From the IMG/VR virus record IMGVR_UViG_2850778813_000004: 48,008 bases of DNA. One strand, 5' to 3'. Position 1 is the stretch's first letter. The number at the start of each line of letters is the position of its first letter. Both the position numbers and the translations under genes were made by a program. The notes under the pieces are model-generated. The model was given only the letters and a program-made list of their open reading frames with translations. It made no database searches and was not told the origin of the DNA. Shown here piece by piece: positions 1-46,415 of the stretch. This stretch comes from a virus. Lineage: Duplodnaviria; Heunggongvirae; Uroviricota; Caudoviricetes.

Positions 1-420
1 ATGGAACAGAAAGCATTATCTGCAGAACCCCGCAGATCATTTTCAAATGAGTTTAAACTTCAAATGGTTAAACTGGCTTCACAACCAGGAGCCTCTGTTG
101 CCCGTATTGCCCGGGAACACGATATCAATGATAACCTGCTGTTCAAATGGCTCAGGCTCTGGCAGAACGAAGGGCGCATATCGCGGCGTCTTCCGGTAAC
201 AACCTCTTCTGACACTGGCGTTGAATTATTACCTGTGGAGATAACGCCGGATGAGCCGAAAGAACCGGTGGCTGCTCTTACTCCGTCTTTATCTACTCAG
301 ACTACAGTTAGTGCCAGCTCCTGCAAGGTGGAGTTCCGTCACGGTAACATGACGCTGGAAAATCCTTCACCAGAGCTGCTCACAGTGTTGATCCGTGAAC
401 TGACCGGGAGGGGACGATGA
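1..420 (+). CDS. IS66-family accessory protein TnpA (orfA)
   Basis: 139-aa ORF at the start of the three-gene IS66 unit; helix-turn-helix-like N-terminus; identical to 45619-46038. Confidence 0.85.
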   Translation: MEQKALSAEPRRSFSNEFKLQMVKLASQPGASVARIAREHDINDNLLFKWLRLWQNEGRISRRLPVTTSSDTGVELLPVEITPDEPKEPVAALTPSLSTQTTVSASSCKVEFRHGNMTLENPSPELLTVLIRELTGRGR

Positions 421-767
421 TCTCACACCCGTCAGGCACCCGCATCTGGCTCGTTGCTGGGATAACCGATATGCGTAAGTCTTTCAACGGGCTGGGTGAA
501 CAGGTACAGCATGTGCTGAATGATAATCCCTTCTCCGGTCACCTGTTCATCTTCCGTGGCCGACGGGGTGACATGATTAAAATCCTGTGGGCTGATGCTG
601 ATGGTCTGTGCCTGTTCACCAGACGCCTGGAGGAAGGCCAGTTTATCTGGCCTGCTGTGCGTGACGGCAAGGTATCCATTACCCGCTCGCAACTGGCAAT
701 GCTCCTCGATAAGCTGGACTGGCGTCAGCCAAAAACATCCCGCCTTAACGCACTGACAATGTTGTAA
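417..767 (+). CDS. IS66-family TnpB (orfB)
   Basis: 116-aa ORF overlapping orfA stop by 4 nt (ATGA); identical to 46035-46385. Confidence 0.85.
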   Translation: MISHPSGTRIWLVAGITDMRKSFNGLGEQVQHVLNDNPFSGHLFIFRGRRGDMIKILWADADGLCLFTRRLEEGQFIWPAVRDGKVSITRSQLAMLLDKLDWRQPKTSRLNALTML

Positions 768-797
768 AAATGTCATGGCCGGATTATAAAAACGGCC

Positions 798-2390
798 ATG
801 AATCAAAAATACCTCATTCGCATTGCAGAACTGGAATGCCAGCTCCGTCAGAAAGACCAGCAACTGAGTCTGGTTGAAGAGACGGAGGCCTTCCTGCGCT
901 CTGCACTGGCCCGCGCCGAAGAAAAGATCGAAGAAGATGAACGGGAAATAGAACATCTGCGGGCTCAGATAGAAAAACTGCGCCGGATGCTGTTCGGTAC
1001 CCGTTCTGAAAAACTGCGTCGTGAAGTTGAACAGGCTGAGGCCCTGCTGAAACAACGCGAACAGGACAGTGATCGTTACAGTGGGCGGGAAGACGATCCG
1101 CAGGTTCCCCGCCAGTTGCGACAGTCTCGTCATCGTCGCCCGTTACCGGAGCATCTGCCCCGCGAAATAAATCGCCTGGAGCCAGAAGAAAGCTGTTGCC
1201 CGGAGTGTGGCGGTGAGCTGGATTATCTGGGGGAAGTCAGCGCAGAACAACTGGAACTGGTGAGCAGCGCTCTGAAAGTGATCCGCACAGAACGGGTAAA
1301 AAAAGCCTGTACAAAATGTGACTGCATCGTTGAAGCACCGGCACCATCCCGTCCGATAGAGCGTGGTATCGCGGGCCCGGGGTTACTTGCCCGCATGTTA
1401 ACGGGAAAATACTGCGAACACCTGCCACTGTATCGTCAGAGTGAAATTTTTGCCCGTCAGGGTGTCGAACTGAGCCGTGCATTACTCTCCAACTGGGTTG
1501 ACGCGTGCTGCCAGTTAATGACGCCGCTGAATGATGCTCTGTACCGTTATGTGATGAACAGCCGCAAAGTTCACACTGATGACACACCAGTAAAAGTGCT
1601 GGCACCGGGCAGGAAGAAGGCGAAAACAGGATATATCTGGACGTATGTCCGGGATGACAGGAATGCCGGTTCGCCAGAGCCTCCGGCGGTCTGGTTCGCC
1701 TACTCACCGGACCATCAGGGTAAACATCCGGAGCAGCACCTTAGTCCCTTCCGGGGTATCCTGCAGGCAGATGCGTTTAATGGTTACGATCGGCTGTTCA
1801 GTGCCGAACGAGAAGGCGGCGCGTTGACGGAAGCAGGATGCTGGGCTCATGCGCGGCGCAAAGTCCACGATGTATATATCAGTACCAAAAGCGCGACAGC
1901 GGAAGAAGCCCTGAAACTAATCGGTGAGCTGTACGCCATCGAGCACGAAATACGCGGGTTGCCGGTGTCTGAACGCCTGGCGGTCAGGCAAATGCAGAGT
2001 AAACCGCTACTGACTTCCCTGTATAAGCTGATGCAGGAGAAAGAACACACGTTATCGAAAAAATGCCGTCTGAGAGATGCGTTCCGGTATATCAGGAAGC
2101 ACTGGGTTGCGTTGTGCAACTTCAGTGATGATGGTCTGGCTGAGGCGGATAATAATGCCGCGGAAAGAGCGCTTCGTGCAGTCTGTCTCGGAAAGAAAAA
2201 CTTTATGTTCTTCGGCAGCGATCACGGTGGAGAGCGTGGTGCGCTACTGTACGGGCTGATCGGCACCTGCCGACTGAACGGTATCGATCCGGAAGCGTAT
2301 CTGCGCTATATCCTGAGCGTACTGCCGGAATGGCCTTCCAACCGTGTTGACGAACTCCTGCCATGGAACGTAGCACTCACCAATAAATAA
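798..2390 (+). CDS. IS66-family transposase TnpC
   Basis: 530-aa ORF with coiled-coil N-terminus, CxxC...CxxC zinc-finger motif (CPECG...CTKCD) and the conserved IS66 catalytic region; second copy at 46416-48008. Confidence 0.9.
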   Translation: MNQKYLIRIAELECQLRQKDQQLSLVEETEAFLRSALARAEEKIEEDEREIEHLRAQIEKLRRMLFGTRSEKLRREVEQAEALLKQREQDSDRYSGREDDPQVPRQLRQSRHRRPLPEHLPREINRLEPEESCCPECGGELDYLGEVSAEQLELVSSALKVIRTERVKKACTKCDCIVEAPAPSRPIERGIAGPGLLARMLTGKYCEHLPLYRQSEIFARQGVELSRALLSNWVDACCQLMTPLNDALYRYVMNSRKVHTDDTPVKVLAPGRKKAKTGYIWTYVRDDRNAGSPEPPAVWFAYSPDHQGKHPEQHLSPFRGILQADAFNGYDRLFSAEREGGALTEAGCWAHARRKVHDVYISTKSATAEEALKLIGELYAIEHEIRGLPVSERLAVRQMQSKPLLTSLYKLMQEKEHTLSKKCRLRDAFRYIRKHWVALCNFSDDGLAEADNNAAERALRAVCLGKKNFMFFGSDHGGERGALLYGLIGTCRLNGIDPEAYLRYILSVLPEWPSNRVDELLPWNVALTNK

Positions 2391-2414
2391 GCGTCAATAC
2401 GGTGCTCCGTTGAC

Positions 2415-2986
2415 GCTGATATGACTTTCCGTGTCAAACCGGAATCTCTAATTTTGACGATTTTCTTTTTAGGTTTAATTCCCTGAGGGCGACGTAGCAG
2501 TAAATCCGACGGTGAATCACGCTGATATTCGCGGGTTGGATACCGCATTACAGAGGTCCGTCATATGAGCCTGCCACTTTCTTACGTCGCGAATCAGCTT
2601 TGTTCCGCCGTCGCCAAGCGCTAACGTGGGTTACTCTTGTACCGGGCTACGTCGCCTTCAGGGAACTGGTTATTCTCATTTTTTATTTGTGACATTGTGG
2701 TTGTTGTGCGACAGACATTGCTATTCGGCCCATATCCCAGATAAAACCCGCCAGCTCACGTGCAACAGCAACAATTGTAATATTGACATTCTTTCCTTTG
2801 GCCTGAAGTTTTCGATACCTCTTACAAAGCCTGAGTTGAGCATCCCATGCTCTGTCAATGACGGGGCGGGGTAAATTTTCCTGCCTTTTTTGTATTGCCG
2901 GACTGATGCGTGCCGGATGACGGTAACTCCACGCTGCCTCGACCAATAGCTTTCTGGCATAGCTGTTTCCGGCTTTGGTAATGCTG
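2415..2986. repeat. 568-bp tandem direct duplication of 2983-3554 (IS110-family transposase 3' end plus downstream sequence)
   Basis: Identity starts at 2415 vs 2983 (gctgatatgactttcc...) and runs to 2986 vs 3554; the units share a 4-bp junction gctg. Duplicated ORFs 2626-2874 and 3194-3442 are identical. Confidence 0.9.
2683..2946 (-). pseudogene. Duplicated 3' fragment of the IS110-family transposase gene
   Basis: 87-aa ORF identical to the C-terminal 87 residues of the 3251-4378 transposase; lies inside the tandem duplicate. Confidence 0.8.
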
Positions 2987-4500
2987 ATATGACTTTCCGT
3001 GTCAAACCGGAATCTCTAATTTTGACGATTTTCTTTTTAGGTTTAATTCCCTGAGGGCGACGTAGCAGTAAATCCGACGGTGAATCACGCTGATATTCGC
3101 GGGTTGGATACCGCATTACAGAGGTCCGTCATATGAGCCTGCCACTTTCTTACGTCGCGAATCAGCTTTGTTCCGCCGTCGCCAAGCGCTAACGTGGGTT
3201 ACTCTTGTACCGGGCTACGTCGCCTTCAGGGAACTGGTTATTCTCATTTTTTATTTGTGACATTGTGGTTGTTGTGCGACAGACATTGCTATTCGGCCCA
3301 TATCCCAGATAAAACCCGCCAGCTCACGTGCAACAGCAACAATTGTAATATTGACATTCTTTCCTTTGGCCTGAAGTTTTCGATACCTCTTACAAAGCCT
3401 GAGTTGAGCATCCCATGCTCTGTCAATGACGGGGCGGGGTAAATTTTCCTGCCTTTTTTGTATTGCCGGACTGATGCGTGCCGGATGACGGTAACTCCAC
3501 GCTGCCTCGACCAATAGCTTTCTGGCATAGCTGTTTCCGGCTTTGGTAATGCTGCCCTGATGTCTGCTTCCACCCGATGAATATTCTGATGGCGTGATAC
3601 CAAACCATGACATCAGTTGTCGTGGATGTTCAAAACGGGTCAGATCACCCAGTTCAGAAATTAATCCAACCGCAGTAATAAACTGAATCCCTCGCATGGC
3701 TTGCAGCGCCTCTACTACCGGATACAGCCTCCATTCGGTAACGGCCTCCTTCAGGGCGGATTCCAGCCGTTCACATTGTGCCTGCCGGTCTTCTATTGTA
3801 CGACGGTGTTCGTCAAAAGCTAATTGTCGCCAGGGACTTTCGAATGAGTATTTGCTGAGCCAGCGTCGGTGTGCAGGGCCCCAATCTGCTCGCCCGACAT
3901 AATGGACCCCATGAACCAGAAGAAACGATTTCAGACGTTGCCTTGCATGCCGTAAATCATCGCGGGCAGATGCCCATGCCCGGGCCAAATCCCGGAATGC
4001 CTCATCTTCAATGCCGGGTACGTAGACAGCAGAAAGATCTCCTGCACGCAGTGAACGCACAAGTCTGATGGCATCACGGCGATCGGTTTTAACCCGCTCC
4101 CCCGGTTTTTTCGGGATAAGTGAGGGGGCGCAGACCATGCAGTCAAAACCGGATTTCACCAGCCGACGATAAAGTCCATAACCACAGGGCCCCGCTTCAT
4201 AAACGATACTGACCTGCGATGACTTTGACCTGAGACGTTTACAAAGATTCTGAATATCAGTAGGTGATGTGCCAATTTTACCCATCAGTTCAACAGGTTC
4301 TGAATTGATAGCATAAGCGACAGTAATCGATTCTTTGTGAACATCTAACCCGACGTACAATGTGTTATTGTTGTTCATGCTGGCCTCCGTGGTGGAAATA
4401 CCGGGGTGTAGCAACAGCTCACCCATGCGGCTCTGACAACGATGTTAACCCGCGTTAAATATCCCACGTTGGCCAGCATCTGTCTCACGGAAAGTCATAC
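2987..4500 (-). mobile_element. IS110-family insertion sequence (boundaries approximate)
   Basis: Single transposase gene with DEDD-type N-terminus (LYVGLDVHKESI); no terminal inverted repeats, as expected for IS110. rcnA homology resumes at about 4505; the lower boundary is taken at the duplication junction. Confidence 0.6.
3251..4378 (-). CDS. IS110-family transposase
   Basis: 375 aa from ATG at 4378, preceded by GGAGG (complement of 4386-4390). N-terminal MNNNNTLYVGLDVHKE motif and C-terminal region typical of IS110/IS1111 transposases. Confidence 0.85.
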   Translation of the reverse strand: MNNNNTLYVGLDVHKESITVAYAINSEPVELMGKIGTSPTDIQNLCKRLRSKSSQVSIVYEAGPCGYGLYRRLVKSGFDCMVCAPSLIPKKPGERVKTDRRDAIRLVRSLRAGDLSAVYVPGIEDEAFRDLARAWASARDDLRHARQRLKSFLLVHGVHYVGRADWGPAHRRWLSKYSFESPWRQLAFDEHRRTIEDRQAQCERLESALKEAVTEWRLYPVVEALQAMRGIQFITAVGLISELGDLTRFEHPRQLMSWFGITPSEYSSGGSRHQGSITKAGNSYARKLLVEAAWSYRHPARISPAIQKRQENLPRPVIDRAWDAQLRLCKRYRKLQAKGKNVNITIVAVARELAGFIWDMGRIAMSVAQQPQCHK

Positions 4501-4506
4501 TGCCTT

Positions 4507-5088
4507 ACTGCTCAATCAGCAGAACCGTGGCTCCAGCTGATTTCCGCAGTGATCATTATTAGCACCGCGTTCTGGATGTTCTGGCGTACCTGGCGCGGCG
4601 AACGCAACTGGCTGGAGAATATGCACGGGCATGATTATGAGCATCATCATCACGATCACGAACATCACCACGACCATGGACATCATCACCATCACGAACA
4701 TGGCGAGTATCAGGATGCCCATGCACGAGCCCATGCCAATGACATTAAACGACGCTTTGATGGTAGAGAGGTCACCAACTGGCAAATTTTGTTATTTGGC
4801 TTAACCGGTGGCCTTATCCCCTGCCCGGCAGCAATTACCGTGCTGTTGATATGCATTCAGTTGAAAGCCCTGACACTGGGCGCAACACTGGTCGTCAGTT
4901 TCAGCATTGGCCTGGCGTTAACGCTTGTCACCGTAGGCGTTGGCGCAGCAATCAGCGTTCAGCAGGTCGCAAAACGCTGGAGCGGATTTAACACTCTCGC
5001 TAAACGCGCCCCCTATTTTTCCAGTCTGTTGATTGGCTTAGTCGGTGTGTATATGGGCGTACATGGCTTCATGGGCATAATGCGATAA
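4507..5088 (+). pseudogene. rcnA: rcnA nickel/cobalt efflux gene, 5'-truncated (about 105 N-terminal codons missing)
   Basis: Reading frame matches RcnA from ...TAQSAEPWLQLISAVIIISTAFW through the His-rich loop (HDYEHHHHDHEHHHDHGHHHHHEHGE) to the C-terminus; homology starts abruptly next to the IS110-family element. Confidence 0.8.
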
Positions 5089-5645: not shown

Positions 5646-5700
5646 GGTGATGCTGCCAACTTACTGATTTAGTGTATGATGGTGTTTTTGAGGTGCTCCA

Positions 5701-5976
5701 GTGGCTTCTGTTTCTATCAGCTGTCCCTCCTGTTCAGCTACTGACGGGGTGGTGCGTAACGGCAAAAGCACTGCCGGACATCAGCGCTATCTCTGCTCTC
5801 ACTGCCGTAAAACATGGCAACTGCAGTTCACTTACACCGCTTCTCAACCCGGTACGCACCAGAAAATTATTGATATGGCCATGAATGGCGTTGGATGCCG
5901 GGCAACTGCACGCATTATGGGCGTTAGCCTCAACACGATTTTACGTCACTTAAAAAACTCAGGCCGCAGTCGGTAA
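5701..5976 (+). CDS. insA: IS1 InsA
   Basis: 91-aa ORF (GTG start) [30 protein letters not shown]... Confidence 0.9.
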
Positions 5977-6020
5977 CCTCGCGCATACAGCCGGGCAGTG
6001 ACGTCATCGTCTGCGCGGAA

Positions 6021-6263
6021 ATGGACGAACAGTGGGGATACGTCGGGGCTAAATCGCGCCAGCGCTGGCTGTTTTACGCGTATGACAGGCTCCGGAAGAC
6101 GGTTGTTGCGCACGTATTCGGTGAACGCACTATGGCGACGCTGGGGCGTCTTATGAGCTTGCTGTCACCCTTTGACGTGGTGATATGGATGACGGATGGC
6201 TGGCCACTGTATGAATCCCGCCTGAAGGGAAAGCTGCACGTAATCAGCAAGCGATATACGTAG
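6021..6263 (+). pseudogene. insB: IS1 insB with premature stop
   Basis: TAG at 6261-6263 where the other three copies have CAG (e.g. 15718-15720); ORF is 80 aa instead of 125. Confidence 0.75.
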
Positions 6264-6413
6264 CGAATTGAGCGGCATAACCTGAATCTGAGGCAGCACC
6301 TGGCACGGCTGGGACGGAAGTCGCTGTCGTTCTCAAAATCGGTGGAGCTGCATGACAAAGTCATCGGGCATTATCTGAACATAAAACACTATCAATAAGT
6401 TGGAGTCATTACC

Positions 6414-7037
6414 CCAGTTGTTTGCATTATTACTTTTGACATTAACACTCTGACTTTCTAAGGGGGCAATCATAATAGTTTCATAATTGACTTTGACATT
6501 ATTAGCTTTGACATCCGAAATCGTCACCCAATTAGCTGAGTCATTTTTTATCACCAATCCATTGCCACTGCGATTTATCAGTAACTTTTTAAAGGTCGCT
6601 TTATTCACCGGAGCAATACCCGCCGGCCGGTAAAACAATTTGATTCTGTTTTGCATCGCAAACTTCAGTGCATTCTTACCTTCTTGTTCTGGACTATTCG
6701 GTGGAATATCCAGAACATTAAGATAAAAAATACTTTCCTTATTACTGGGTAATTTATTAGGCATGATTTTAATTTTTATTTGTTGCCCAGAATTGGCCGC
6801 TACTTTCACTACTGGTGGCGTTAACATGAAAGGAACCTGAATCTTTTCTGGCGGCAGAGACGTGTCGCCATCATCAATCCACGCCTGCATCAGCGAAGAG
6901 CGGTTTCCCTGATTCATCAGTTTTACCATGACCTCTTTCTGCTCTGCCGGGTAAATGATACGGGTCCCGAAAATAACCATTCCGGCATGCACGGGGAATA
7001 TCATAGAAGAGATGAGTAAAGATAATAACCCTTTCAT
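6414..7037 (-). pseudogene. yehC: yehC-like fimbrial periplasmic chaperone, 3'-truncated by IS1
   Basis: PapD-like chaperone from ATG at 7037 (MKGLLSLLISSMIFPVHAG signal peptide); the ORF runs into IS1 at 6413 and ends in IS1-derived codons. Confidence 0.75.
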
Positions 7038-11924: not shown

Positions 11925-12490
11925 ATGAGACACTTTATCTATCAGGACGAAAAATCACATAAATTCTGGGCGGTTGAGCAGCAGGGAAACGAGCTGCATA
12001 TCAACTGGGGCAAAGTCGGCACTAACGGGCAAAGCCAGATAAAAAGTTTTGCGGATGCTGCGGCAGCGGCAAAAGCGGAGCTTAAGCTGATCGCAGAGAA
12101 AACGAAAAAAGGCTATGTGGAAAATGCTTCAGCAAACGTGCATATCCCCCCCATTACCAAAGCCACTCCTGAAGTTGAAACTTCCCCTGAGAGTAAAAAC
12201 CAACGCCCCTGGCTGGCTGATGATGCGGTCATTCGGCTAACTGACGATATTAATCGATTTGCTTTTCCTCATCGCTCTCGCCCCAGAGGGATCAATTATC
12301 TGCACAAAGATGGTCAAATATGGCAGCTCATCGCGAATAACACCAGGGCATATGATCCCGCCAACAATTACCGTTCTTATCCAGAAAACTGGCAGCAGGC
12401 TTTTGCTGAGTTACAAATGCGAGTTCAAGGTAATCAACAGACAGGGAGTGCACAATCTGATGCAGCATTGCTCTGGAGTTTCTGGAACTC
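11925..12490 (+). pseudogene. molR: molR-like gene, 5' fragment (WGR domain), cut by IS600-like element
   Basis: N-terminus MRHFIYQDEKSHKFWAVEQQGNELHINWGKVGTNGQ is a WGR domain as in K-12 MolR; ORF runs into the IS end at 12491. Confidence 0.7.
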
Positions 12491-12984
12491 TGAGGTGTAC
12501 TGGCAATAGCGGACACTACCATTTGTTCTTTTTTTAAGCAGCCATCTGATGATATTTTTCCCTGAAGGCTGCCGGGGAGATATTCCCCAGACGAGAGTGA
12601 CGACGCTGACGATTGTAGAAAATCTCAATGTATTCCCGTATTACTGAGATGGCTTCATCCCGGTTATTAAAACGATAGTGGCTCAGGCTCTCATTTTTCA
12701 GCGTTCCCCAGAAGCTTTCCATCGGAGCGTTGTCGTAACAGTGACCTTTACGCGACATTGATGTTTTCAGACCAGACTGCTCCTGTATGACCCGGTAATC
12801 GTATGCGCAGTACTGTGAACCTCGATCAGAGTGGTGGATTAGCCCGGCAGGTGGGCGCTGGCTCCTGAGCGCCATAAACAGGGCTTTACCTGTTAGACTG
12901 GCCCCCTGAATCTCCAGACAACCAGTATCACTTAAATAAGTGATAGTCTTAATACTAGTTTTTAGACTAGTCATTGGAGTACAG

Positions 12985-14213: not shown

Positions 14214-14723
14214 GGGCAAATCCACCTGTCAGCTCTTTTGTCATGCGCTCTCCCATGGCGTAGCCGACAATTTCGCACGTATAAACATCTTTGATGCCAG
14301 CGAGGTACAACCATCCCTCCTGTGTGGCAACATACGTCAGGTCCGCCACCCAGACCTGATTTGGTGCTGTAGGAGCGAACGTCTGGTTCAGCAGATTTGG
14401 CGCAACTGGCAGATTGTGGTTCGGGTTCGTAGTCGCTCTGAACTTGCGTTTCTGCTTACAGCGTAGCCTTAGCTCCTTACGAAGACGTGCCAGTCGGTCA
14501 CGACCAACGATGATGCCATTCTCTGCCAGCTCCGTCTGGAGCCGCCGGGTTCCATATGTTTCGCGAGTGCGGATATGTGCCACCTTAATCTCCAGTTTTA
14601 GCCGCTCATCACTTTGTTTTCTGTCTGAGGGTTCATGCTGTACCCAGTTGTAATAACCGCTCCTGGATACACCAAATACCTGACACATCGCTTCAATGGG
14701 AAATTGTTGTCGCCATTGTTCGA

Positions 14724-15026
14724 TTAACGCGTATTTTTCAGCGACTCCTGTGCAAAATACGCTGTTGCTTTTTTTAATATATCTCGCTCAAGGCGAGCTT
14801 CATTTAACGCCTTACGCAGTTGCAGAATTTCAGATTCCAGTTCAGCCACCGTGCGGGAACCAGGAGTACCGAGCCCTTTTCTGGCGGCGGTAACCCATTG
14901 TCCTAAAGTGCCTTCAGGAAGGGATAATCGGGAAGCGCCTTCACTGATCGAAAGTTGATTTTCAAGAACCGTTCTGACAGCTTCGGCTTTGAACTCTTTA
15001 GAGTAACGTTGGTTTTTTCTGCTCAT
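14724..15026 (-). CDS. IS600-like orfA
   Basis: 100-aa ORF MSRKNQRYSKEFKAEAVRTVLENQ...; identical to 44688-44990. Confidence 0.85.
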   Translation of the reverse strand: MSRKNQRYSKEFKAEAVRTVLENQLSISEGASRLSLPEGTLGQWVTAARKGLGTPGSRTVAELESEILQLRKALNEARLERDILKKATAYFAQESLKNTR

Positions 15027-15149
15027 TATTAGCTCCTTCTGATGCCATTCTATTTCAGGAAGGAGTGTCCGTTAAACTCAGGCTACCTCACTCTGGTGAT
15101 GCTGCCAACTTACTGATTTAGTGTATGATGGTGTTTTTGAGGTGCTCCA

Positions 15150-15425
15150 GTGGCTTCTGTTTCTATCAGCTGTCCCTCCTGTTCAGCTACTGACGGGGTG
15201 GTGCGTAACGGCAAAAGCACTGCCGGACATCAGCGCTATCTCTGCTCTCACTGCCGTAAAACATGGCAACTGCAGTTCACTTACACCGCTTCTCAACCCG
15301 GTACGCACCAGAAAATTATTGATATGGCCATGAATGGCGTTGGATGCCGGGCAACTGCACGCATTATGGGCGTTAGCCTCAACACGATTTTACGTCACTT
15401 AAAAAACTCAGGCCGCAGTCGGTAA
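15150..15425 (+). CDS. insA: IS1 InsA
   Basis: 91-aa ORF identical to the other copies. Confidence 0.9.
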
Positions 15426-15469
15426 CCTCGCGCATACAGCCGGGCAGTGACGTCATCGTCTGCGCGGAA

Positions 15470-15847
15470 ATGGACGAACAGTGGGGATACGTCGGGGCTA
15501 AATCGCGCCAGCGCTGGCTGTTTTACGCGTATGACAGGCTCCGGAAGACGGTTGTTGCGCACGTATTCGGTGAACGCACTATGGCGACGCTGGGGCGTCT
15601 TATGAGCTTGCTGTCACCCTTTGACGTGGTGATATGGATGACGGATGGCTGGCCACTGTATGAATCCCGCCTGAAGGGAAAGCTGCACGTAATCAGCAAG
15701 CGATATACGCAGCGAATTGAGCGGCATAACCTGAATCTGAGGCAGCACCTGGCACGGCTGGGACGGAAGTCGCTGTCGTTCTCAAAATCGGTGGAGCTGC
15801 ATGACAAAGTCATCGGGCATTATCTGAACATAAAACACTATCAATAA
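15470..15847 (+). CDS. insB: IS1 InsB reading frame (expressed as InsAB' by frameshifting)
   Basis: Intact 125-aa ORF at IS positions 376-753. Confidence 0.85.
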
Positions 15848-15862
15848 GTTGGAGTCATTACC

Positions 15863-19595: not shown

Positions 19596-19621
19596 TTACA
19601 GGAGGGGGTAATGACTCCAAC

Positions 19622-19999
19622 TTATTGATAGTGTTTTATGTTCAGATAATGCCCGATGACTTTGTCATGCAGCTCCACCGATTTTGAGAACGACAGCGAC
19701 TTCCGTCCCAGCCGTGCCAGGTGCTGCCTCAGATTCAGGTTATGCCGCTCAATTCGCTGCGTATATCGCTTGCTGATTACGTGCAGCTTTCCCTTCAGGC
19801 GGGATTCATACAGTGGCCAGCCATCCGTCATCCATATCACCACGTCAAAGGGTGACAGCAAGCTCATAAGACGCCCCTGCGTCGCCATAGTGCGTTCACC
19901 GAATACGTGCGCAACAACCGTCTTCCGGAGCCTGTCATACGCGTAAAACAGCCAGCGCTGGCGCGATTTAGCCCCGACGTATCCCCACTGTTCGTCCAT
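19622..19999 (-). CDS. insB: IS1 InsB reading frame
   Basis: 125-aa ORF, IS1 copy c. Confidence 0.85.
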
Positions 20000-20043
20000 T
20001 TCCGCGCAGACGATGACGTCACTGCCCGGCTGTATGCGCGAGG

Positions 20044-20319
20044 TTACCGACTGCGGCCTGAGTTTTTTAAGTGACGTAAAATCGTGTTGAGGCTAACGCC
20101 CATAATGCGTGCAGTTGCCCGGCATCCAACGCCATTCATGGCCATATCAATAATTTTCTGGTGCGTACCGGGTTGAGAAGCGGTGTAAGTGAACTGCAGT
20201 TGCCATGTTTTACGGCAGTGAGAGCAGAGATAGCGCTGATGTCCGGCAGTGCTTTTGCCGTTACGCACCACCCCGTCAGTAGCTGAACAGGAGGGACAGC
20301 TGATAGAAACAGAAGCCAC
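20044..20319 (-). CDS. insA: IS1 InsA
   Basis: 91-aa ORF, IS1 copy c. Confidence 0.9.
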
Positions 20320-20387
20320 TGGAGCACCTCAAAAACACCATCATACACTAAATCAGTAAGTTGGCAGCATCACCACAGGAGGGTGTT

Positions 20388-22081: not shown

Positions 22082-23447
22082 TATGCAAGCCTCACAATAT
22101 AGTTAAATGCGATGTTTTTGACGGTGTTTTCCGCGTTACCCGCAGCGTTAACGGTGATGGTGTGTCCATGTGAACCAATCGCAACGGAGTGCGTATGCGC
22201 ACCAATACCTACAGTATGTGCATGTGCGCCAGAACTTGCTGCAGTACCAGACAGCGAGTGGGTATGAGCACCTGCTGACTGTGTCTGAATACGTTGATAA
22301 TACGATCTACGGGAAGAAGTCCCCGGGCTTACTTGATACTGTGAATTCTGGACATAAGTGAACCCACCGCCATCATAAAATGCTAACGCAGAACCGCCGC
22401 CTCCTGGCCAACGAATACCATTACCATGAGTATGAACACCGGCAGACCCCGTAGAGCCACTCAGACTGTGCGTATGCGCCCCGGTGTTATTCGTGGATTT
22501 AGTGCCGTAATCAAACGACGATGTGGTTTTCGTCCCCAAATCCGTACTGGATGCGCTGGCGCTGTGGGTGTGCGATTTAATGCCGTCCTGTTCCTGAGAC
22601 AATACGGCCCGACCACTGGCAGGTTTGCCCTTAATCGTCCAGCCACGCATATCAGGGATCACGCCTGACGGATAAGCGGCTGCAAGTTTCGGGTAAGCAG
22701 ATTTGTCAAAAGTCTGCCCCTGCATCAGGGCATAACCAGACGGAACGGTATCTGATGGCCACGGGATTGGTGCGCCGACTGGGTAGCTTTCTGGTGGAAG
22801 ATTTTTCGAGGTATAAACTTCTGCCCAGCCTTCCTCAAAACCATAACCGTCTCTTGAAGAACGGTAGAACAGACCACCATTTCTGTAATGCGCCTTCATC
22901 TGCAGGGTCCGGCAACTTCCGACTCCGGTATAGAAGTTAACCAGAATATAGCTGTCGCCAGAGCGGGTGACATTGTAAGCGCCTGATTCGGCATTCCAGG
23001 GAACGGCTCCATCCGAATCCGCATAAGCCCCCGTCGAACGTCGGGCAAATGCACCAATATTTTCCGGCGTGAGGTTAATATCCGCCGAGCCATCAAACTT
23101 AACACCGTTAATTTTTGGGGCTGCCGCAAGTTTCGTCGCGGTATCGGCGTTCCCCTTCAGTGCCCCGGTGATCCCATCAGTAACAAACAACGGACCTGAA
23201 ATAGTCCCTCCAGTCGTTGGCAGCGCTCCAATATCTGATGGTGTAGGTTTCTGATGTGAGCTATACATCGTATAAACAACACCATAGGTAACGCTGGAAG
23301 GCTTACTCGCTGAATATGTTGGCGAGGTATAAACAGAAACTGACGCATTTGCAGTACAATCCCAATGGATATTTACACTCGTCGCATAATTGGGTGATGC
23401 TGCCAACTTACTGATTTAGTGTATGATGGTGTTTTTGAGGTGCTCCA

Positions 23448-23723
23448 GTGGCTTCTGTTTCTATCAGCTGTCCCTCCTGTTCAGCTACTGACGGGGTGGT
23501 GCGTAACGGCAAAAGCACTGCCGGACATCAGCGCTATCTCTGCTCTCACTGCCGTAAAACATGGCAACTGCAGTTCACTTACACCGCTTCTCAACCCGGT
23601 ACGCACCAGAAAATTATTGATATGGCCATGAATGGCGTTGGATGCCGGGCAACTGCACGCATTATGGGCGTTAGCCTCAACACGATTTTACGTCACTTAA
23701 AAAACTCAGGCCGCAGTCGGTAA
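23448..23723 (+). CDS. insA: IS1 InsA
   Basis: 91-aa ORF, IS1 copy d. Confidence 0.9.
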
Positions 23724-23767
23724 CCTCGCGCATACAGCCGGGCAGTGACGTCATCGTCTGCGCGGAA

Positions 23768-24145
23768 ATGGACGAACAGTGGGGATACGTCGGGGCTAAA
23801 TCGCGCCAGCGCTGGCTGTTTTACGCGTATGACAGGCTCCGGAAGACGGTTGTTGCGCACGTATTCGGTGAACGCACTATGGCGACGCTGGGGCGTCTTA
23901 TGAGCTTGCTGTCACCCTTTGACGTGGTGATATGGATGACGGATGGCTGGCCACTGTATGAATCCCGCCTGAAGGGAAAGCTGCACGTAATCAGCAAGCG
24001 ATATACGCAGCGAATTGAGCGGCATAACCTGAATCTGAGGCAGCACCTGGCACGGCTGGGACGGAAGTCGCTGTCGTTCTCAAAATCGGTGGAGCTGCAT
24101 GACAAAGTCATCGGGCATTATCTGAACATAAAACACTATCAATAA
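23768..24145 (+). CDS. insB: IS1 InsB reading frame
   Basis: 125-aa ORF, IS1 copy d. Confidence 0.85.
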
Positions 24146-26042
24146 GTTGGAGTCATTACCGCATAATTGCCAATCTCAACGTAAATATCATATGTATCGC
24201 CGGATGTGTTGATCCAGGCGAAATTCGTTAATCCGACGGCTGTACGCTTCCACAAAGCCCCGGTAATTCCTTTGGGGTTTCCATTGCCTGCTCGTAGAAC
24301 CAGTTCTGAAATGCCTGCCTGATGTGGGGAACCGACGTTGTAACCAGCGCCACCAATCAATGCGATGTAAACGATGGAACTCGCTTGTGGCATGGTAACC
24401 GTAGCCAGTTTGAACCACCCAGCCCCGCCAGAGAAAGACATCGTTACTGAATTTAAAGTACCAATATCTTTCGGCGTTAATGTTATATCCGCAGTCAATG
24501 CTTTTCCGTTAACTTTTCGGTTAGATGGCACCCTGCTATTCGCATTGTCATTGGCTGCTTTAACTGCTTTTGGCGTTGCGGCCAGCGATTCACTGGTGCT
24601 ATCAACAGCACTGCTAAGTTTCACAACACCTTTAGTTGTAAGGCTTGCGTCTTCCATCGCAACTGCACCGGCAATCTCTTCAGCACGATCAGCAGCAGCT
24701 TCCGCACGGGTCGCAGCGGATTCAGCAGTAGTTTTGCTCTGAGATGCTGCCGTCGCACTGCCTGCCGCCTCTGTTGCCTTCGTGGATGCCGTCGTGGCGC
24801 TGCTCTTCGCTGCTGACGCTTGTCTGGTCGCCTCATCTTTTGAAGCAGACGCCGATGATGCCGATGACGCCGCCGAACTGGCGGACGATGCGGCAGCCGT
24901 TTTTGAGGATTCTGCGCTGGTTTCCGACGCTTTCGCGTTCGTTTCGGATGTCTTCGCTGCGGAAGCAGACCTCGCTGCTGCGCTGGCCTGTTCAGTGGCT
25001 TCGCCAGCCTTCGTTGTGGCTGTTGAAGCAGACGATGCGGAGCTTTCTGCCGATTTTCCGGCGGCGGTGACACTGGCTGAGGCCTGCCCGGCACTTGTTG
25101 ACGCTGCACTGGCAGACGACGCAGCCGCTGTTTTTGAGCCTGCCGCAGCTGAGGCACTCTGTTCCGCTGCCGTTTCAGAAGACCTGGCGTTTGTCTCAGA
25201 CGTTTTTGCCGCCTTCGCAGAATTTGCTGCCGCCGTTGCCGAGGAAGCTGCGCTGCTGGCGCTCGAGGCTGCGTTCGTTTCTGATGATTTTGCCGCCTCT
25301 TTTGAAGCCGACGCATCCCGTGCTGAAGTGGCTGCTTCTGACGCTTTCGTGGTCGCGGTGGATGCAGAAGTGGCTGCTGATTGTTGTGACGCTGCCGCAT
25401 TCGTTTCTGACGTTTTCGCCGCACCGGCACTGGTAGCCGCCGCGCTTTTTGAGGACTCTGCAGCGGCAGCACTTTTTAATGCTTCAGTGGCCTTTGTTGA
25501 TGCCGTTCCTGCGCTGGAAGACGCTGACTGAGCCGACGACGCGGCCTGTCCGGCTGACGTGCTGGCGGCACGTGCTGAGGCTGCAGCATCGGTTGCATGA
25601 GTTGCCGCCTCGCTGGCTGATGCACTGGCATCGCTGGCTGATTTTTTCGCGGCTGCCGTATTCTGTGCAACCGCGGAGGCGTTACGTGACACCTCTTCCA
25701 CCATCTGCTCAAAGCGGCGCAGTGCCTCCGGTCGGACATCATCCTCCGTCATGGCACCGAGAAAATCATTCAGCGTACCTGGTCTGGAACCTTCATAGAC
25801 GGTAATGGTCCCGGCATGTGAAGGCGGAAAACCTTCAACCAGCAGGGTGACGCTGTACTGACCATGCTCAACATCCATGCTGTAACGTCCGGCTTCATCC
25901 GGATTTTCAGAGGCCACCGTGTTCACCACCACCGTGCTGCTGGTTCGTCTGGCCTTCAGCACAATGGTGCAGTTCTGTACTGGTTTTCCTGTGCCATCTT
26001 TAAGCACGCCAGAAATTTTTACTGTCATACTTTTCCACCAAT

Positions 26043-43709: not shown

Positions 43710-43833
43710 AGCGTACTACGTTACTTATCTTTATTCGGCTGCAACTTATCCGGTACGTTTCCGGCAGTTTCCATCAGATAATCGGACAGCTGAGGTGTAC
43801 TGGCAATAGCGGACACTACCATTTGTTCTTTTT

Positions 43834-44652
43834 TTAAGCAGCCATCTGATGATATTTTTCCCTGAAGGCTGCCGGGGAGATATTCCCCAGACGAGAGTGA
43901 CGACGCTGACGATTGTAGAAAATCTCAATGTATTCCCGTATTACTGAGATGGCTTCATCCCGGTTATTAAAACGATAGTGGCTCAGGCTCTCATTTTTCA
44001 GCGTTCCCCAGAAGCTTTCCATCGGAGCGTTGTCGTAACAGTGACCTTTACGCGACATTGATGTTTTCAGACCAGACTGCTCCTGTATGACCCGGTAATC
44101 GTATGCGCAGTACTGTGAACCTCGATCAGAGTGGTGGATTAGCCCGGCAGGTGGGCGCTGGCTCCTGAGCGCCATAAACAGGGCTTTACCTGTCAGCTCT
44201 TTTGTCATGCGCTCTCCCATGGCGTAGCCGACAATTTCGCACGTATAAACATCTTTGATGCCAGCGAGGTACAACCATCCCTCCTGTGTGGCAACATACG
44301 TCAGGTCCGCCACCCAGACCTGATTTGGTGCTGTAGGAGCGAACGTCTGGTTCAGCAGATTTGGCGCAACTGGCAGATTGTGGTTCGGGTTCGTAGTCGC
44401 TCTGAACTTGCGTTTCTGCTTACAGCGTAGCCTTAGCTCCTTACGAAGACGTGCCAGTCGGTCACGACCAACGATGATGCCATTCTCTGCCAGCTCCGTC
44501 TGGAGCCGCCGGGTTCCATATGTTTCGCGAGTGCGGATATGTGCCACCTTAATCTCCAGTTTTAGCCGCTCATCACTTTGTTTTCTGTCTGAGGGTTCAT
44601 GCTGTACCCAGTTGTAATAACCGCTCCTGGATACACCAAATACCTGACACAT
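43834..44652 (-). CDS. IS600-like orfB (DDE transposase)
   Basis: 272-aa ORF with the IS3-family DDE region (...LIHHSDRGSQYCA...CYDNAPMESFWGTLKNE...). Confidence 0.85.
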   Translation of the reverse strand: MCQVFGVSRSGYYNWVQHEPSDRKQSDERLKLEIKVAHIRTRETYGTRRLQTELAENGIIVGRDRLARLRKELRLRCKQKRKFRATTNPNHNLPVAPNLLNQTFAPTAPNQVWVADLTYVATQEGWLYLAGIKDVYTCEIVGYAMGERMTKELTGKALFMALRSQRPPAGLIHHSDRGSQYCAYDYRVIQEQSGLKTSMSRKGHCYDNAPMESFWGTLKNESLSHYRFNNRDEAISVIREYIEIFYNRQRRHSRLGNISPAAFREKYHQMAA

Positions 44653-44687
44653 CGCTTCAATGGGAAATTGTTGTCGCCATTGTTCGA

Positions 44688-44990
44688 TTAACGCGTATTT
44701 TTCAGCGACTCCTGTGCAAAATACGCTGTTGCTTTTTTTAATATATCTCGCTCAAGGCGAGCTTCATTTAACGCCTTACGCAGTTGCAGAATTTCAGATT
44801 CCAGTTCAGCCACCGTGCGGGAACCAGGAGTACCGAGCCCTTTTCTGGCGGCGGTAACCCATTGTCCTAAAGTGCCTTCAGGAAGGGATAATCGGGAAGC
44901 GCCTTCACTGATCGAAAGTTGATTTTCAAGAACCGTTCTGACAGCTTCGGCTTTGAACTCTTTAGAGTAACGTTGGTTTTTTCTGCTCAT
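44688..44990 (-). CDS. IS600-like orfA
   Basis: 100-aa ORF identical to 14724-15026. Confidence 0.85.
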   Translation of the reverse strand: MSRKNQRYSKEFKAEAVRTVLENQLSISEGASRLSLPEGTLGQWVTAARKGLGTPGSRTVAELESEILQLRKALNEARLERDILKKATAYFAQESLKNTR

Positions 44991-45145
44991 TATTAGCTCC
45001 TTCTGATGCCATTCTATTTCAGGAAGGAGTGTCCGTTAAACTCAGGCTACCTCAATCAGCGCCAGTCAGTCAGCCGGAGCAAAAACAGAAGCCCCACTCA
45101 TTCCGGAACAACCTTCTTAATAACCCATTTCAACGAGAAAATCCT

Positions 45146-45618: not shown

Positions 45619-46038
45619 ATGGAACAGAAAGCATTATCTGCAGAACCCCGCAGATCATTTTCAAATGAGTTTAAACTTCAAATGGTTAAACTGGCTTCAC
45701 AACCAGGAGCCTCTGTTGCCCGTATTGCCCGGGAACACGATATCAATGATAACCTGCTGTTCAAATGGCTCAGGCTCTGGCAGAACGAAGGGCGCATATC
45801 GCGGCGTCTTCCGGTAACAACCTCTTCTGACACTGGCGTTGAATTATTACCTGTGGAGATAACGCCGGATGAGCCGAAAGAACCGGTGGCTGCTCTTACT
45901 CCGTCTTTATCTACTCAGACTACAGTTAGTGCCAGCTCCTGCAAGGTGGAGTTCCGTCACGGTAACATGACGCTGGAAAATCCTTCACCAGAGCTGCTCA
46001 CAGTGTTGATCCGTGAACTGACCGGGAGGGGACGATGA
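45619..46038 (+). CDS. IS66-family accessory protein TnpA (orfA)
   Basis: Identical to 1-420. Confidence 0.85.
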   Translation: MEQKALSAEPRRSFSNEFKLQMVKLASQPGASVARIAREHDINDNLLFKWLRLWQNEGRISRRLPVTTSSDTGVELLPVEITPDEPKEPVAALTPSLSTQTTVSASSCKVEFRHGNMTLENPSPELLTVLIRELTGRGR

Positions 46039-46385
46039 TCTCACACCCGTCAGGCACCCGCATCTGGCTCGTTGCTGGGATAACCGATATGCGTAAGTCT
46101 TTCAACGGGCTGGGTGAACAGGTACAGCATGTGCTGAATGATAATCCCTTCTCCGGTCACCTGTTCATCTTCCGTGGCCGACGGGGTGACATGATTAAAA
46201 TCCTGTGGGCTGATGCTGATGGTCTGTGCCTGTTCACCAGACGCCTGGAGGAAGGCCAGTTTATCTGGCCTGCTGTGCGTGACGGCAAGGTATCCATTAC
46301 CCGCTCGCAACTGGCAATGCTCCTCGATAAGCTGGACTGGCGTCAGCCAAAAACATCCCGCCTTAACGCACTGACAATGTTGTAA
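46035..46385 (+). CDS. IS66-family TnpB (orfB)
   Basis: Identical to 417-767. Confidence 0.85.
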   Translation: MISHPSGTRIWLVAGITDMRKSFNGLGEQVQHVLNDNPFSGHLFIFRGRRGDMIKILWADADGLCLFTRRLEEGQFIWPAVRDGKVSITRSQLAMLLDKLDWRQPKTSRLNALTML

Positions 46386-46415
46386 AAATGTCATGGCCGG
46401 ATTATAAAAACGGCC

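What the first reader, a model, noticed from the sequence alone, without database searches (positions are those of the whole stretch)
2415..3554. Exact 568-bp tandem duplication of the IS110-family element's 3' end, butted against the IS66 copy
Positions 2415-2986 and 2983-3554 are identical, overlapping by the 4-bp junction gctg. The unit contains the last 304 bp of the IS110-family transposase gene plus 264 bp downstream. It begins 24 bp after the IS66 tnpC stop, within a hairpin (gcgtcaa...ttgacgc, 2391-2416) where the IS66 right terminus should be. IS110/IS1111-family elements transpose through circular intermediates and often target hairpins or terminal repeats of other elements. The arrangement could be a partial element left by aborted or replicative transposition into the IS66 end, or slipped replication at a microhomology. 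A collapsed-repeat assembly error is also possible.
Basis: partly seen in the sequence, partly recalled or inferred. Interest (0 to 1): 0.45.

Follow-up and report, generated by a model that had tools for sequence, protein, structure and literature searches.

The report
Transposase-made tandem repeat of ISSso6's tail
The exact 568-base repeat is real: it is one of a recurrent class of tail-end duplications that the RNA-guided insertion sequence ISSso6 very probably makes on itself when its right end is joined to a look-alike of its own target inside a second copy of the element.

Summary
In detail: window 2415-2986 equals 2983-3554 exactly (period 568). The element is ISSso6, an IS110-family RNA-guided insertion sequence with subterminal inverted repeats and a conserved 187-nt guide RNA gene (seekRNA/bridge type) downstream of the transposase. 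It sits inside the right inverted repeat of an IS66-family element that interrupts rcnA. The last 5 nt of IS66 lie beyond ISSso6, at 4504-4508. The repeat junction is the ISSso6 right terminus, then the AG core dinucleotide, then an internal AG site. The identical 2082-nt composite occurs at a different locus (speC) in E. coli FDAARGOS_944. Three other perfect tail duplications (205, 161, 106 nt) have the same right end-AG-internal site anatomy. They occur in eight further complete E. coli genomes or other assemblies at several loci, and a 108-nt one occurs in a Paraburkholderia relative. Three of the four ISSso6 junction sites are among the four of 83 AG sites that best pair with the right-target guide. 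An artefact of one assembly or random slippage is therefore unlikely. The event is best read as a by-product of the element's own recombinase. The exact route is inferred, not shown. It is a new variant of a known kind, of moderate interest.

The parts
1..2415 (+). IS66-family element. Its left end is off the window. It holds tnpA 1-420, tnpB 417-767 and tnpC 798-2390. The inner part of its right inverted repeat is 2391-2415, and this ends in GTTGACG (2409-2415), which is the right-target half CGTCAAC for ISSso6.
   Evidence: Pfam and NCBIfam matches. The left repeat GTAAGCGTAAAC and 8-bp direct repeats in L001 and L002 define the ends.
2416..2417 (-). Outer core dinucleotide AG (CT on the + strand), at the junction between the outer right end and IS66.
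   Evidence: AG flanks both ends of about 70 family members. Coordinates are verified.
2418..2985 (-). Extra 568-nt unit. It holds a right end with subterminal repeat (2418-2433), a complete second guide-RNA gene, and the 3' 301 nt of the transposase gene (2683-2983). The junction core AG is at 2984-2985.
   Evidence: It is identical to 2986-3553. PGAP annotates the same fragment in FDAARGOS_944 as an incomplete IS110 transposase.
2479..2665 (-). Guide RNA gene (seekRNA/bridge-type), copy in the extra unit. The right-target guide V1 UAGCGCU is at 2617-2623. The left-target guide V2 ACGUAAG is at 2581-2587. The AUAUCAG segment, identical to the right end plus core, is at 2522-2528.
   Evidence: A 20-bp closing stem. 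Fold z-score -4.5. Conserved in 42 aligned relatives, with V1 and V2 on opposite sides of an internal loop. Guide-flank covariation.
2986..4503 (-). Complete ISSso6, 1518 nt. The right end is at 2986-3001 and the left end at 4486-4503.
   Evidence: Megablast to ISSso6 copies in E. coli. Ends are defined by comparison of 79 loci. It is identical to the copies in L097-L100.
3047..3233 (-). Guide RNA gene of the complete element. V1 is at 3185-3191, V2 at 3149-3155 and AUAUCAG at 3090-3096.
   Evidence: As for 2479-2665, with coordinates.
3251..4378 (-). ISSso6 transposase gene, 375 aa.
   Evidence: PF01548 and PF02371. NF033542 'IS110 family RNA-guided transposase', 274 bits.
3545..3561 (-). Internal site X1 used for the duplication. 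In transposase orientation it reads ATCAGGGC-AG-CATTACC, with the core at 3552-3553.
   Evidence: The right half pairs at 4 of 5 positions with V1, placing it among the top 4 of 83 AG sites.
4504..4508 (+). Displaced tip of the IS66 right inverted repeat (CTTAC), which is the left core AG plus the left-target half GTA for ISSso6.
   Evidence: IS66 direct repeats follow this tip directly in L001 and L002.
4509..5088 (+). 3' part of rcnA (nickel/cobalt efflux), cut by the IS66 insertion.
   Evidence: NF007454, profile positions 83-283 of 283.

Best explanation
ISSso6 is an IS110-family element whose transposase is guided by an RNA encoded just downstream of the gene. One guide (V1) pairs with the AG core plus 5 nt to the right of the insertion point. 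A second guide (V2) has the sequence of the 5 nt to the left plus AG. In the window the element has inserted in its usual way into the GTA-AG-CGTCAAC tip of an IS66 inverted repeat. I propose the following for the duplication. The recombinase acted at the right-end junction (right end-AG-flank) of one copy. It joined the right end to an AG site inside the transposase gene of a second copy of the same element, most simply the sister chromatid after replication. That site's right side (CATTA) pairs with V1 about as well as the IS66 target does. The outcome is a complete element followed by a second copy of its last 568 nt, with two guide-RNA genes and two right ends. Shown here: the anatomy, the guides, the recurrence, the AG and right-end anchoring, and the enrichment of junction sites for V1 pairing. 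Inferred: that the recombinase did the joining, that the partner was a sister copy, and that it was a one-step exchange.
For: The repeat is exact, and one boundary is the element's right terminus plus the AG core. The same 2082-nt composite, with 0 differences, lies in speC of FDAARGOS_944, flanked by a perfect V1 target AGCGCTA. A single-copy ISSso6 lies at the same speC site in L102. Other perfect tail duplications share the right end-AG-internal site anatomy. The 205-nt one is in 5 genomes at 7 places, at 4 or more loci, plus L098. The 161-nt one is in L099 and L106. The 106-nt one is in L109 and L110. A 108-nt one is in Paraburkholderia L076. Homology at the junctions is as short as 2 nt, the AG alone, in L099. 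The guides are supported by covariation in 46 non-redundant sets. V1 against its own right flank scores 4.07 of 5, against 1.71 +/- 0.17 for shuffled pairings. V2 scores 3.37 against 1.94 +/- 0.14. V1 and V2 face each other across an internal loop of a conserved structure. Three of the four ISSso6 junction sites (X1, X2, X4) are among the 4 of 83 AG sites listed, before the others were found. X4 was a prospective test. No 5' partial duplication was seen in about 85 elements. A preprint reports transfer of the right end's top strand to a new right target for an IS110 element (10.1101/2025.10.25.684509).
Against: No experiment or read-level data were available. Pairing of X1 with V1 is only modestly unusual: 8.7% of AG sites in the window do as well. 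Its left half matches V2 poorly (2 of 5). X3 pairs at only 3 of 5 positions. The 299-nt left-flank duplication in L098 has a right half that pairs at 1 of 5. Guide complementarity is confounded with homology to the natural flank, 10 nt for X4 and 4-6 nt for X2. The predicted reciprocal deletion product was not found. The nearest candidate is offset by 5 nt and carries an intact IS66 tip. The enrichment statistic includes one directed search.
Confidence: 0.6

Rival explanations
1. Self-insertion followed by deletion. An excised ISSso6 circle integrated into the internal AG site of a resident copy, giving a nested pair. Homologous recombination between the two directly repeated left parts then removed one of them, leaving the tail duplication.
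For: The end product is identical. The most frequent site, X2, is a good full pseudo-target, matching 4 of 5 on the left and 4 of 5 on the right. Other IS110-family elements do insert into the guide-RNA gene of relatives at an AG (L028, L054). For the short units the long left repeats would recombine fastest, which would explain the lack of 5' duplications.
Against: The junction diagnostic of the nested stage (internal left half-AG-left end) is absent from 5426 genomes for both X1 and X2. The left half of X1 is a poor match (2 of 5). For X1 (950-nt against 568-nt repeats) the alternative 5' duplication should also occur, but none was seen.
Confidence: 0.2
2. Aberrant minicircle. The recombinase excised a 568-nt circle, using the internal site as a false left end. 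That circle re-entered an ISSso6 copy by homologous recombination, producing the tandem repeat.
For: The circle junction would be the observed junction. A circle can enter any copy, which would explain the same junction at two loci. In ISPpu9, circles carrying the 3' part of tnp plus the downstream RNA gene were detected at about 4.6 copies per cell (PMC12288879).
Against: Use as a false left end should need a match to V2 and to the left-end sequence. X1 has 2 of 5 and no ungapped similarity to GCAGTATG. The V1-type enrichment fits use as a target, not as a left end. The X1 region is not an exceptional mimic of the circle junction.
Confidence: 0.1
3. Replication slippage or template switching at short homology, without the transposase.
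For: The junctions carry 2-10 nt of homology with the flank: CAGC for X1, ATATCAGCGT for X4. The copies are identical, as expected for recent slippage.
Against: In all ten loci examined, one breakpoint is exactly the right terminus plus AG. That would be about 4 in 1500 per event by chance. One case has only the AG in common. Four-nt homologies are everywhere, yet the same sites recur at different loci.
Confidence: 0.06
4. Assembly artefact in the window's source genome.
For: Multi-copy insertion sequences are hard to assemble. The window begins and ends inside two copies of IS66. No reads are available.
Against: The identical junction and composite are present at a different locus in an independent complete assembly. 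Analogous structures occur in assemblies from several projects.
Confidence: 0.04

Closest known systems
IS1111-type elements with a seekRNA (ISEc11, ISPa11, ISKpn4; Siddiquee et al. 2024, PMC11187229)
   Same: A DEDD transposase, subterminal inverted repeats and a long non-coding region downstream of tnp. The RNA has a top-strand-pairing segment 5' of a bottom-strand-pairing segment. There is no target duplication beyond the core, and insertion is site-specific.
   Different: The ISSso6 transposase is longer (375 aa against 330-350). It is only 25-30% identical, and only locally, to ISEc11 and IS4321, and 33% over its full length to IS1533. Its guides and its target (the IS66 tip GTA-AG-CG) are not described in that paper's main text. 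Tail duplications are not mentioned there.
IS621 / IS110 bridge RNA recombinases, and the 'direct transfer' pathway (preprint 10.1101/2025.10.25.684509)
   Same: Two guides on the two sides of an internal loop read the left and right halves of the target around a 2-nt core. The reported product of right-end transfer to a new right target has the same composition as the window's junction.
   Different: In IS621-type elements the RNA is upstream of tnp and the core is CT (from my own knowledge of the published work). A donor-binding loop was not established here. That pathway was shown for CazIS110-1 and IS621, not for ISSso6, and no tandem duplication was reported.
ISPpu9 modular circles and the ssr9-'tnp module (PMC12288879)
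   Same: IS110 family, with recombination at an AG dinucleotide at the boundaries. A module made of the 3' part of tnp plus the downstream RNA gene exists as a separate unit and as a circle.
   Different: There the module is a separate chromosomal copy bounded by repeated A'/B boxes, and that study's genome sequencing found no duplication. Here the partial copy is in tandem with the complete element, and the internal site is not a repeated box.
IS4321/IS5075 targeting the inverted repeats of Tn21-family transposons (from memory: Partridge and Hall 2003; not checked here)
   Same: An IS1111-type element that inserts at a fixed position inside the terminal inverted repeat of another mobile element.
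   Different: The host element (IS66 family) and the target sequence differ. No tail duplication is known to me for those elements.

Membership tests
IS110 family (RNA-guided DEDD transposases) | Transposase with an N-terminal DEDD/RuvC-like domain and the C-terminal Transposase_20 domain | tested here: met
   PF01548 (E 2e-11) and PF02371 (E 8e-24). NF033542 scores 274 bits against a cut-off of 140.
IS110 family (RNA-guided DEDD transposases) | Site-specific insertion with a conserved core dinucleotide on both sides and no longer target duplication | tested here: met
   AG lies on both sides in nearly all of 79 loci. The IS66 empty site was reconstructed as GTA-AG-CGTCAAC by comparison with the left inverted repeat.
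IS110 family (RNA-guided DEDD transposases) | A structured non-coding RNA whose loop segments match the two halves of the target | tested here: met
   Covariation of V1 and V2 with the flanks. Conserved structure with an internal loop. Expression and binding of the RNA were not testable.
IS1111 subgroup | Subterminal inverted repeats | tested here: met
   GTATGACTTTCCGTG and CACGGAAAGTCATAT, lying 3 and 1 nt from the termini.
IS1111 subgroup | Long non-coding region downstream of tnp, with the top-strand guide 5' of the bottom-strand guide | tested here: met
   264 nt downstream against 122 nt upstream. V1 lies 5' of V2. The criterion is from PMC11187229.
IS1111 subgroup | Transposase related over its full length to that of IS1111 (330-350 aa) | tested here: inconclusive
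   The protein is 375 aa. It has only local matches of 25-30% to ISEc11 and IS4321, and a full-length match of 33% to IS1533. It is 17-25% identical to the IS1111-type columns of the published matrix. No phylogeny was made.
ISSso6 (named element) | Near-identity to the reference transposase and element | tested here: met
   PGAP names identical copies 'IS110-like element ISSso6 family transposase'. The N-terminal about 100 residues shown for the ISSso6 entry in the supplement of PMC11187229 are identical. ISfinder itself was not available.
IS66 family (host element) | tnpA-tnpB-tnpC organisation, GTAAGCG-type terminal repeats and 8-bp target duplication | tested here: met
   Pfam and NCBIfam matches. 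The inverted repeats and direct repeats were seen in L001 and L002. The left end of the window's own copy is off the window.

The most novel reading that the evidence does not exclude
ISSso6-type recombinases carry out one-ended, guide-assisted joining of their right end to AG sites in a nearby copy of themselves. This would make the tail duplications a natural genomic record of the single-strand 'right end to new right target' transfer so far seen only in a preprint's assays. The products (elements with two guide-RNA genes and two right ends) would themselves be mobile variants, which would explain why the same junction sits at several loci. The commonest site would be the guide's own DNA, because the guide is palindromic (AGCGCT).
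Probability: 0.3. Interest if true: 0.65.

Novelty: new variant of a known kind. Interest (0 to 1): 0.5.

Why it matters
IS110-family recombinases are being developed as programmable genome-editing tools, and how they cut, exchange strands and choose off-targets is still debated. These end-anchored duplications are natural off-target products. They show that the right end plus a 2-nt core and about half a target can be enough for joining. They show that an element's own guide-coding DNA can be its commonest off-target. And they show that partial elements carrying an extra guide-RNA gene arise repeatedly. They also bear on annotation: such 'partial IS110 transposase' pseudogenes next to a full copy are a regular structure rather than assembly noise. 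The work also assigns ISSso6 a guide RNA and a target, the conserved GTAAGCG tip of IS66-family elements.

Tried and rejected
1. Rfam scan of 2300-4620 at E up to 1 gave no match.

2. Exact search for the junction in the GTDB representative genomes and in metagenome contigs gave 0 matches. The plasmid collection also gave none.

3. A junction-spanning 131-aa ORF is not on record as a called gene.

4. The 87-aa truncated ORF is on four short draft contigs. They all begin 36 nt inside the unit and do not contain the junction, so they are not evidence for it.

5. I considered that 'GTAAGGCA' belongs to ISSso6 rather than to IS66. This was rejected, because the IS66 8-bp direct repeats follow CTTAC directly.

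6. I considered that the ATATCAGCGT segment was the target guide. This was rejected in favour of V1 and V2 after the family alignment.

7. I considered that the X1 region mimics the circle junction (17 of 23 matches by eye). This was rejected, because a local alignment scan puts the best pseudo-junction elsewhere and X1 scores no better than shuffles.

8. The predicted reciprocal deletion junction gave a 58/60 hit. Inspection shows it is not the reciprocal product.

9. The nested-insertion junctions for X1 and X2 are absent.

10. The window's own IS66-rcnA junction is absent from the E. coli collection, so the source genome and its ancestral state could not be identified. CP032523.1 is not in the annotated collections.

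11. Literature searches for IS1111 with tandem duplication found nothing.

12. A false second right end in L096 turned out to be a chance match in bfr.
Full report
**1. Observation.** Window 2415-2986 and 2983-3554 are identical over 572 nt (period 568). The identity ends at once on both sides, and there is no other copy in the 48-kb window. Tandem Repeats Finder missed it only because its longest period is 500.

**2. What the pieces are.**
- The ORF 3251-4378 (minus strand, 375 aa) has the two IS110-family transposase domains. It matches NCBIfam NF033542, 'IS110 family RNA-guided transposase'.
- Megablast against 5426 complete E. coli genomes names the element ISSso6. In every listed hit the matching stretch was 568 nt shorter than the query, so the normal element has one unit.
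- Positions 1-2390 encode tnpA, tnpB and tnpC of an IS66-family element.
- Positions 4510-5088 are the last 192 codons of the nickel/cobalt efflux gene rcnA.

**3. Where the elements end.**
- In two E. coli loci with the same IS66::ISSso6 arrangement, the 8-bp target duplication of IS66 lies directly before GTAAGCG at the left end. At the right it lies directly after the CTTAC that follows ISSso6. The duplications are TATTGGTA in L001 and GAGAAAAG in L002.
- IS66 therefore ends at window 4508, and ISSso6 lies inside its right inverted repeat. IS66, not ISSso6, interrupts rcnA.
- I compared the interrupted repeat with the left repeat, and compared 79 loci (7 from E. coli, the rest from relatives). 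Read in the direction of the transposase, the anatomy is: left target GTA, core AG, element GCA-GTATGACTTTCCGTG ... CACGGAAAGTCATAT-C, core AG, right target CGTCAAC.
- The element is 1518 nt (2986-4503). Its subterminal inverted repeats lie 3 and 1 nt from its tips. AG is present on both sides (coordinates verified).
- Other ISSso6 insertion sites in E. coli read GTA-AG-CGCTGGG (sopA), GTA-AG-CGCTAAC (between dnaJ and nhaA) and ATA-AG-CGCTATG (speC). The preferred target is close to the conserved GTAAGCG tip of IS66-family repeats. This explains why 18 of the 40 listed hits extend from ISSso6 into the IS66 end.

**4. The guide RNA.**
- The 264 nt downstream of the transposase gene contain a 187-nt segment closed by a 20-bp stem. 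It folds better than all 200 shuffles (z = -4.5). Rfam has no match.
- A scan of one genome per species found 80 relatives with 71-81% protein identity, nearly all in Burkholderiaceae. They share the element's ends and this segment at the DNA level.
- In an alignment of 42 distinct sequences, the consensus structure has 44 pairs, 9 of them with compensatory changes. It places two variable stretches on opposite sides of one internal loop.
- The 5' stretch (V1, UAGCGCU in ISSso6) is complementary to AG plus the 5 nt to the right of each element's insertion point. The 3' stretch (V2, ACGUAAG) has the sequence of the 5 nt to the left plus AG.
- In 46 non-redundant guide/flank sets, V1 pairs with its own right flank at 4.07 of 5 positions. 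Shuffled pairings give 1.71 +/- 0.17, with a maximum of 2.26 in 2000 shuffles. V2 matches its own left flank at 3.37 of 5, against 1.94 +/- 0.14.
- This is the arrangement described for seekRNAs of IS1111-type elements, with the top-strand match 5' of the bottom-strand match (PMC11187229).
- The 568-nt unit therefore carries a complete second guide-RNA gene (2479-2665) besides the one of the full element (3047-3233).

**5. The junction.**
- In transposase orientation the internal junction reads ...GTCATATC-AG-CATTACC..., that is right terminus, core, then the sequence that in the intact gene follows ATCAGGGC-AG (site X1, core at 3552-3553).
- The right side of X1 (CATTA) pairs with V1 at 4 of 5 positions, one of them a wobble pair. 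That is as many as the IS66 target. Its left side matches V2 at only 2 of 5.
- Among the 83 AG sites on that strand of the element, four reach 4 of 5: X1, one at 3503, one at 3190 and one at 3091. Across the whole window 8.7% of AG sites do so.

**6. Recurrence.**
- A 60-nt query across the junction, with a threshold that half-matches cannot pass, finds one place in 5426 genomes. It is in the chromosome of FDAARGOS_944.
- There the same 2082-nt composite, without a single difference, lies inside speC. It is flanked by ATA-AG and AG-CGCTA, a perfect V1 target. Another genome has a single-copy ISSso6 at that very site (L102).
- I scanned all fetched loci for two right ends and then ran junction queries. 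These gave three more kinds of perfect tail duplication:

| Site | Unit | Internal site | Where found |
|---|---|---|---|
| X2 | 205 nt | ACGTT-AG-CGCTT, the DNA that encodes V1 | 5 genomes, 7 places, plus L098; 4 or more loci (speC, sopA, two pINV-type plasmid sites) |
| X3 | 161 nt | AAGAA-AG-TGGCA | L099 and L106 |
| X4 | 106 nt | ATATC-AG-CGTGA | L109 and L110, two loci |

- V1 of ISSso6 contains the palindrome AGCGCT, so the DNA that encodes it resembles its own target. That DNA is site X2.
- A Paraburkholderia relative has a 108-nt duplication at the site homologous to X4 (L076).
- In all ten loci one breakpoint is exactly the right terminus plus AG, and the two copies are 100% identical. 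Homology between the internal site and the outer flank ranges from 2 nt (the AG alone, X3) to 10 nt (X4).
- X1, X2 and X4 are three of the four sites listed. X4 was searched for because it was on that list. Random choice of 4 of 83 sites would include 3 or more of the listed four with probability 2e-4. This figure is too favourable, because one site was found by a directed search and X1 prompted the idea. A fairer estimate is of the order of 1e-3 to 1e-2.
- No duplication of the left part was seen in about 85 elements.

**7. Explanation.**
- These facts make an artefact confined to one assembly very unlikely. They also make plain slippage unlikely, since slippage has no reason to be anchored at the right terminus plus core ten times.
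- The best reading is that the element's own recombinase joined the right end of one copy to an AG site inside another copy of the same element. The likeliest partner is the sister chromatid, and the choice of site was helped by pairing of V1 with the site's right side.
- A junction of this composition (right end, core, new right target) is what a recent preprint reports as the product of top-strand transfer by an IS110-family enzyme (10.1101/2025.10.25.684509).
- Two other transposase-dependent routes give the same product. One is self-insertion of a circle followed by deletion between the repeated left parts. Its diagnostic junction is absent for X1 and X2 in all 5426 genomes, although that intermediate would be unstable. 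The other is an aberrant 568-nt circle that re-enters by homologous recombination. Circles carrying the 3' part of tnp plus the RNA gene are known for ISPpu9 (PMC12288879), but X1 does not resemble a left end.
- I cannot say whether the same X1 junction at two loci reflects recurrence at a favoured site, movement of the composite as a unit, or copying between elements.

**8. Weak points.**
- There are no reads and no experiment.
- The pairing of X1 with V1 is only modestly unusual.
- X3, and a 299-nt duplication of the left flank in L098 that ends exactly at the left AG, are not explained by guide pairing.
- Guide complementarity cannot be separated from homology with the natural flank.
- The predicted reciprocal deletion was not found. 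The 58/60 match in three genomes breaks 5 nt upstream of X1 and is followed by an intact IS66 tip. It is a different event, and the closeness of its position is unexplained.

**9. Comparison and novelty.**
- By anatomy ISSso6 is of the IS1111 type: subterminal repeats, a downstream RNA and the same guide order. Its transposase, however, is only distantly related to ISEc11 and IS4321, and is closest to IS1533 among the five references compared.
- ISSso6 itself, IS66 and RNA-guided targeting are all known. Within the searchable library I found three things undescribed: a guide RNA and target for ISSso6, the family of relatives in Burkholderiaceae, and end-anchored tail duplications as a regular product.
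- I rate this a new variant of a known kind, with moderate interest for those who study or engineer these recombinases.

Noticed in passing
window 1-2390 and 45619-48008: The window begins and ends inside two direct copies of the same IS66-family element (1 mismatch in 2390 nt). The second copy's left inverted repeat GTAAGCGTAAAC is visible just upstream of 45619, and its right end is cut off by the window.
   Followed up: partly
window 5646-6415, 15091-15862, 19605-20378, 23393-24160: Four IS1-like copies of about 770 nt (identified as IS1 from memory of its sequence). Each contains ACATC-AG-CGCTA, a perfect match to the right-target guide of ISSso6 but only 3 of 5 for the left guide. The window also holds two further repeat pairs (12490-12893 = 43790-44193 and 14224-15090 = 44188-45054). 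The IS load suggests a Shigella or enteroinvasive E. coli type genome.
   Followed up: partly
L098 2278-2875 (GCA_031665325.1, speC locus): A perfect 299-nt tandem duplication of the chromosomal DNA to the left of ISSso6, ending exactly at the left AG core. The same copy also carries the 205-nt tail duplication. The junction's right half pairs at only 1 of 5 positions with the guide.
   Followed up: partly
L107 and L108 around 3026 (E. coli IBS28, STEC1590): An ISSso6-like element is cut off after GCAGACATCAG and abuts an intact IS66 tip GTAAGCG, 5 nt from the X1 core. There is no matching 8-bp IS66 direct repeat at the other IS66 end in L108.
   Followed up: partly
L028 3819-5359 and L054 2256-3682 (Paraburkholderia, Caballeronia): Unrelated IS110-family elements (ORFs of 395 and 353 aa) are inserted inside the guide-RNA gene of ISSso6 relatives. 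In L028 the insertion is at the AG of the conserved GATATC-AG-CGTGAT, with AG on both sides.
   Followed up: partly
L011, L016, L026, L033-L035, L040, L042 and others: Many Burkholderiaceae relatives have AA instead of AG after the right end, and their right-target guide pairs with AA, while the left side keeps AG. L033 and L042 share the right flank but differ at the left junction.
   Followed up: no
window about 4205-4226 (minus strand): Inside the 5' part of the transposase gene, AAAGTCATCGCAGGTCAGTAT resembles the predicted circle junction AAAGTCATATCAGG-CAGTAT better than any of 300 shuffles did. No rearrangement at this site was seen.
   Followed up: no
L089-L092 (draft assemblies GCA_001689145.1, GCA_001688995.1, GCA_001687925.1, GCA_001689325.1): Short contigs (303-515 nt) of the ISSso6 tail all start at the same position, equivalent to window 3516, which suggests a branch point in those assembly graphs. 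One such contig is seen in 16 samples.
   Followed up: partly
L099 versus L106: The 161-nt duplication has the same outer right flank in both genomes but different left flanks. The left flank in L106 is the nhaA site. This indicates recombination between ISSso6 copies.
   Followed up: no
window 2435-2440 and 3003-3008 (minus strand TTGACA): A perfect -35-like hexamer faces outward, 17 nt from the first base past the right core. This is as expected for a promoter completed at the circle junction in this family. No good -10 follows it at the internal junction or in IS66. This was read by eye and no promoter scan was run.
   Followed up: no
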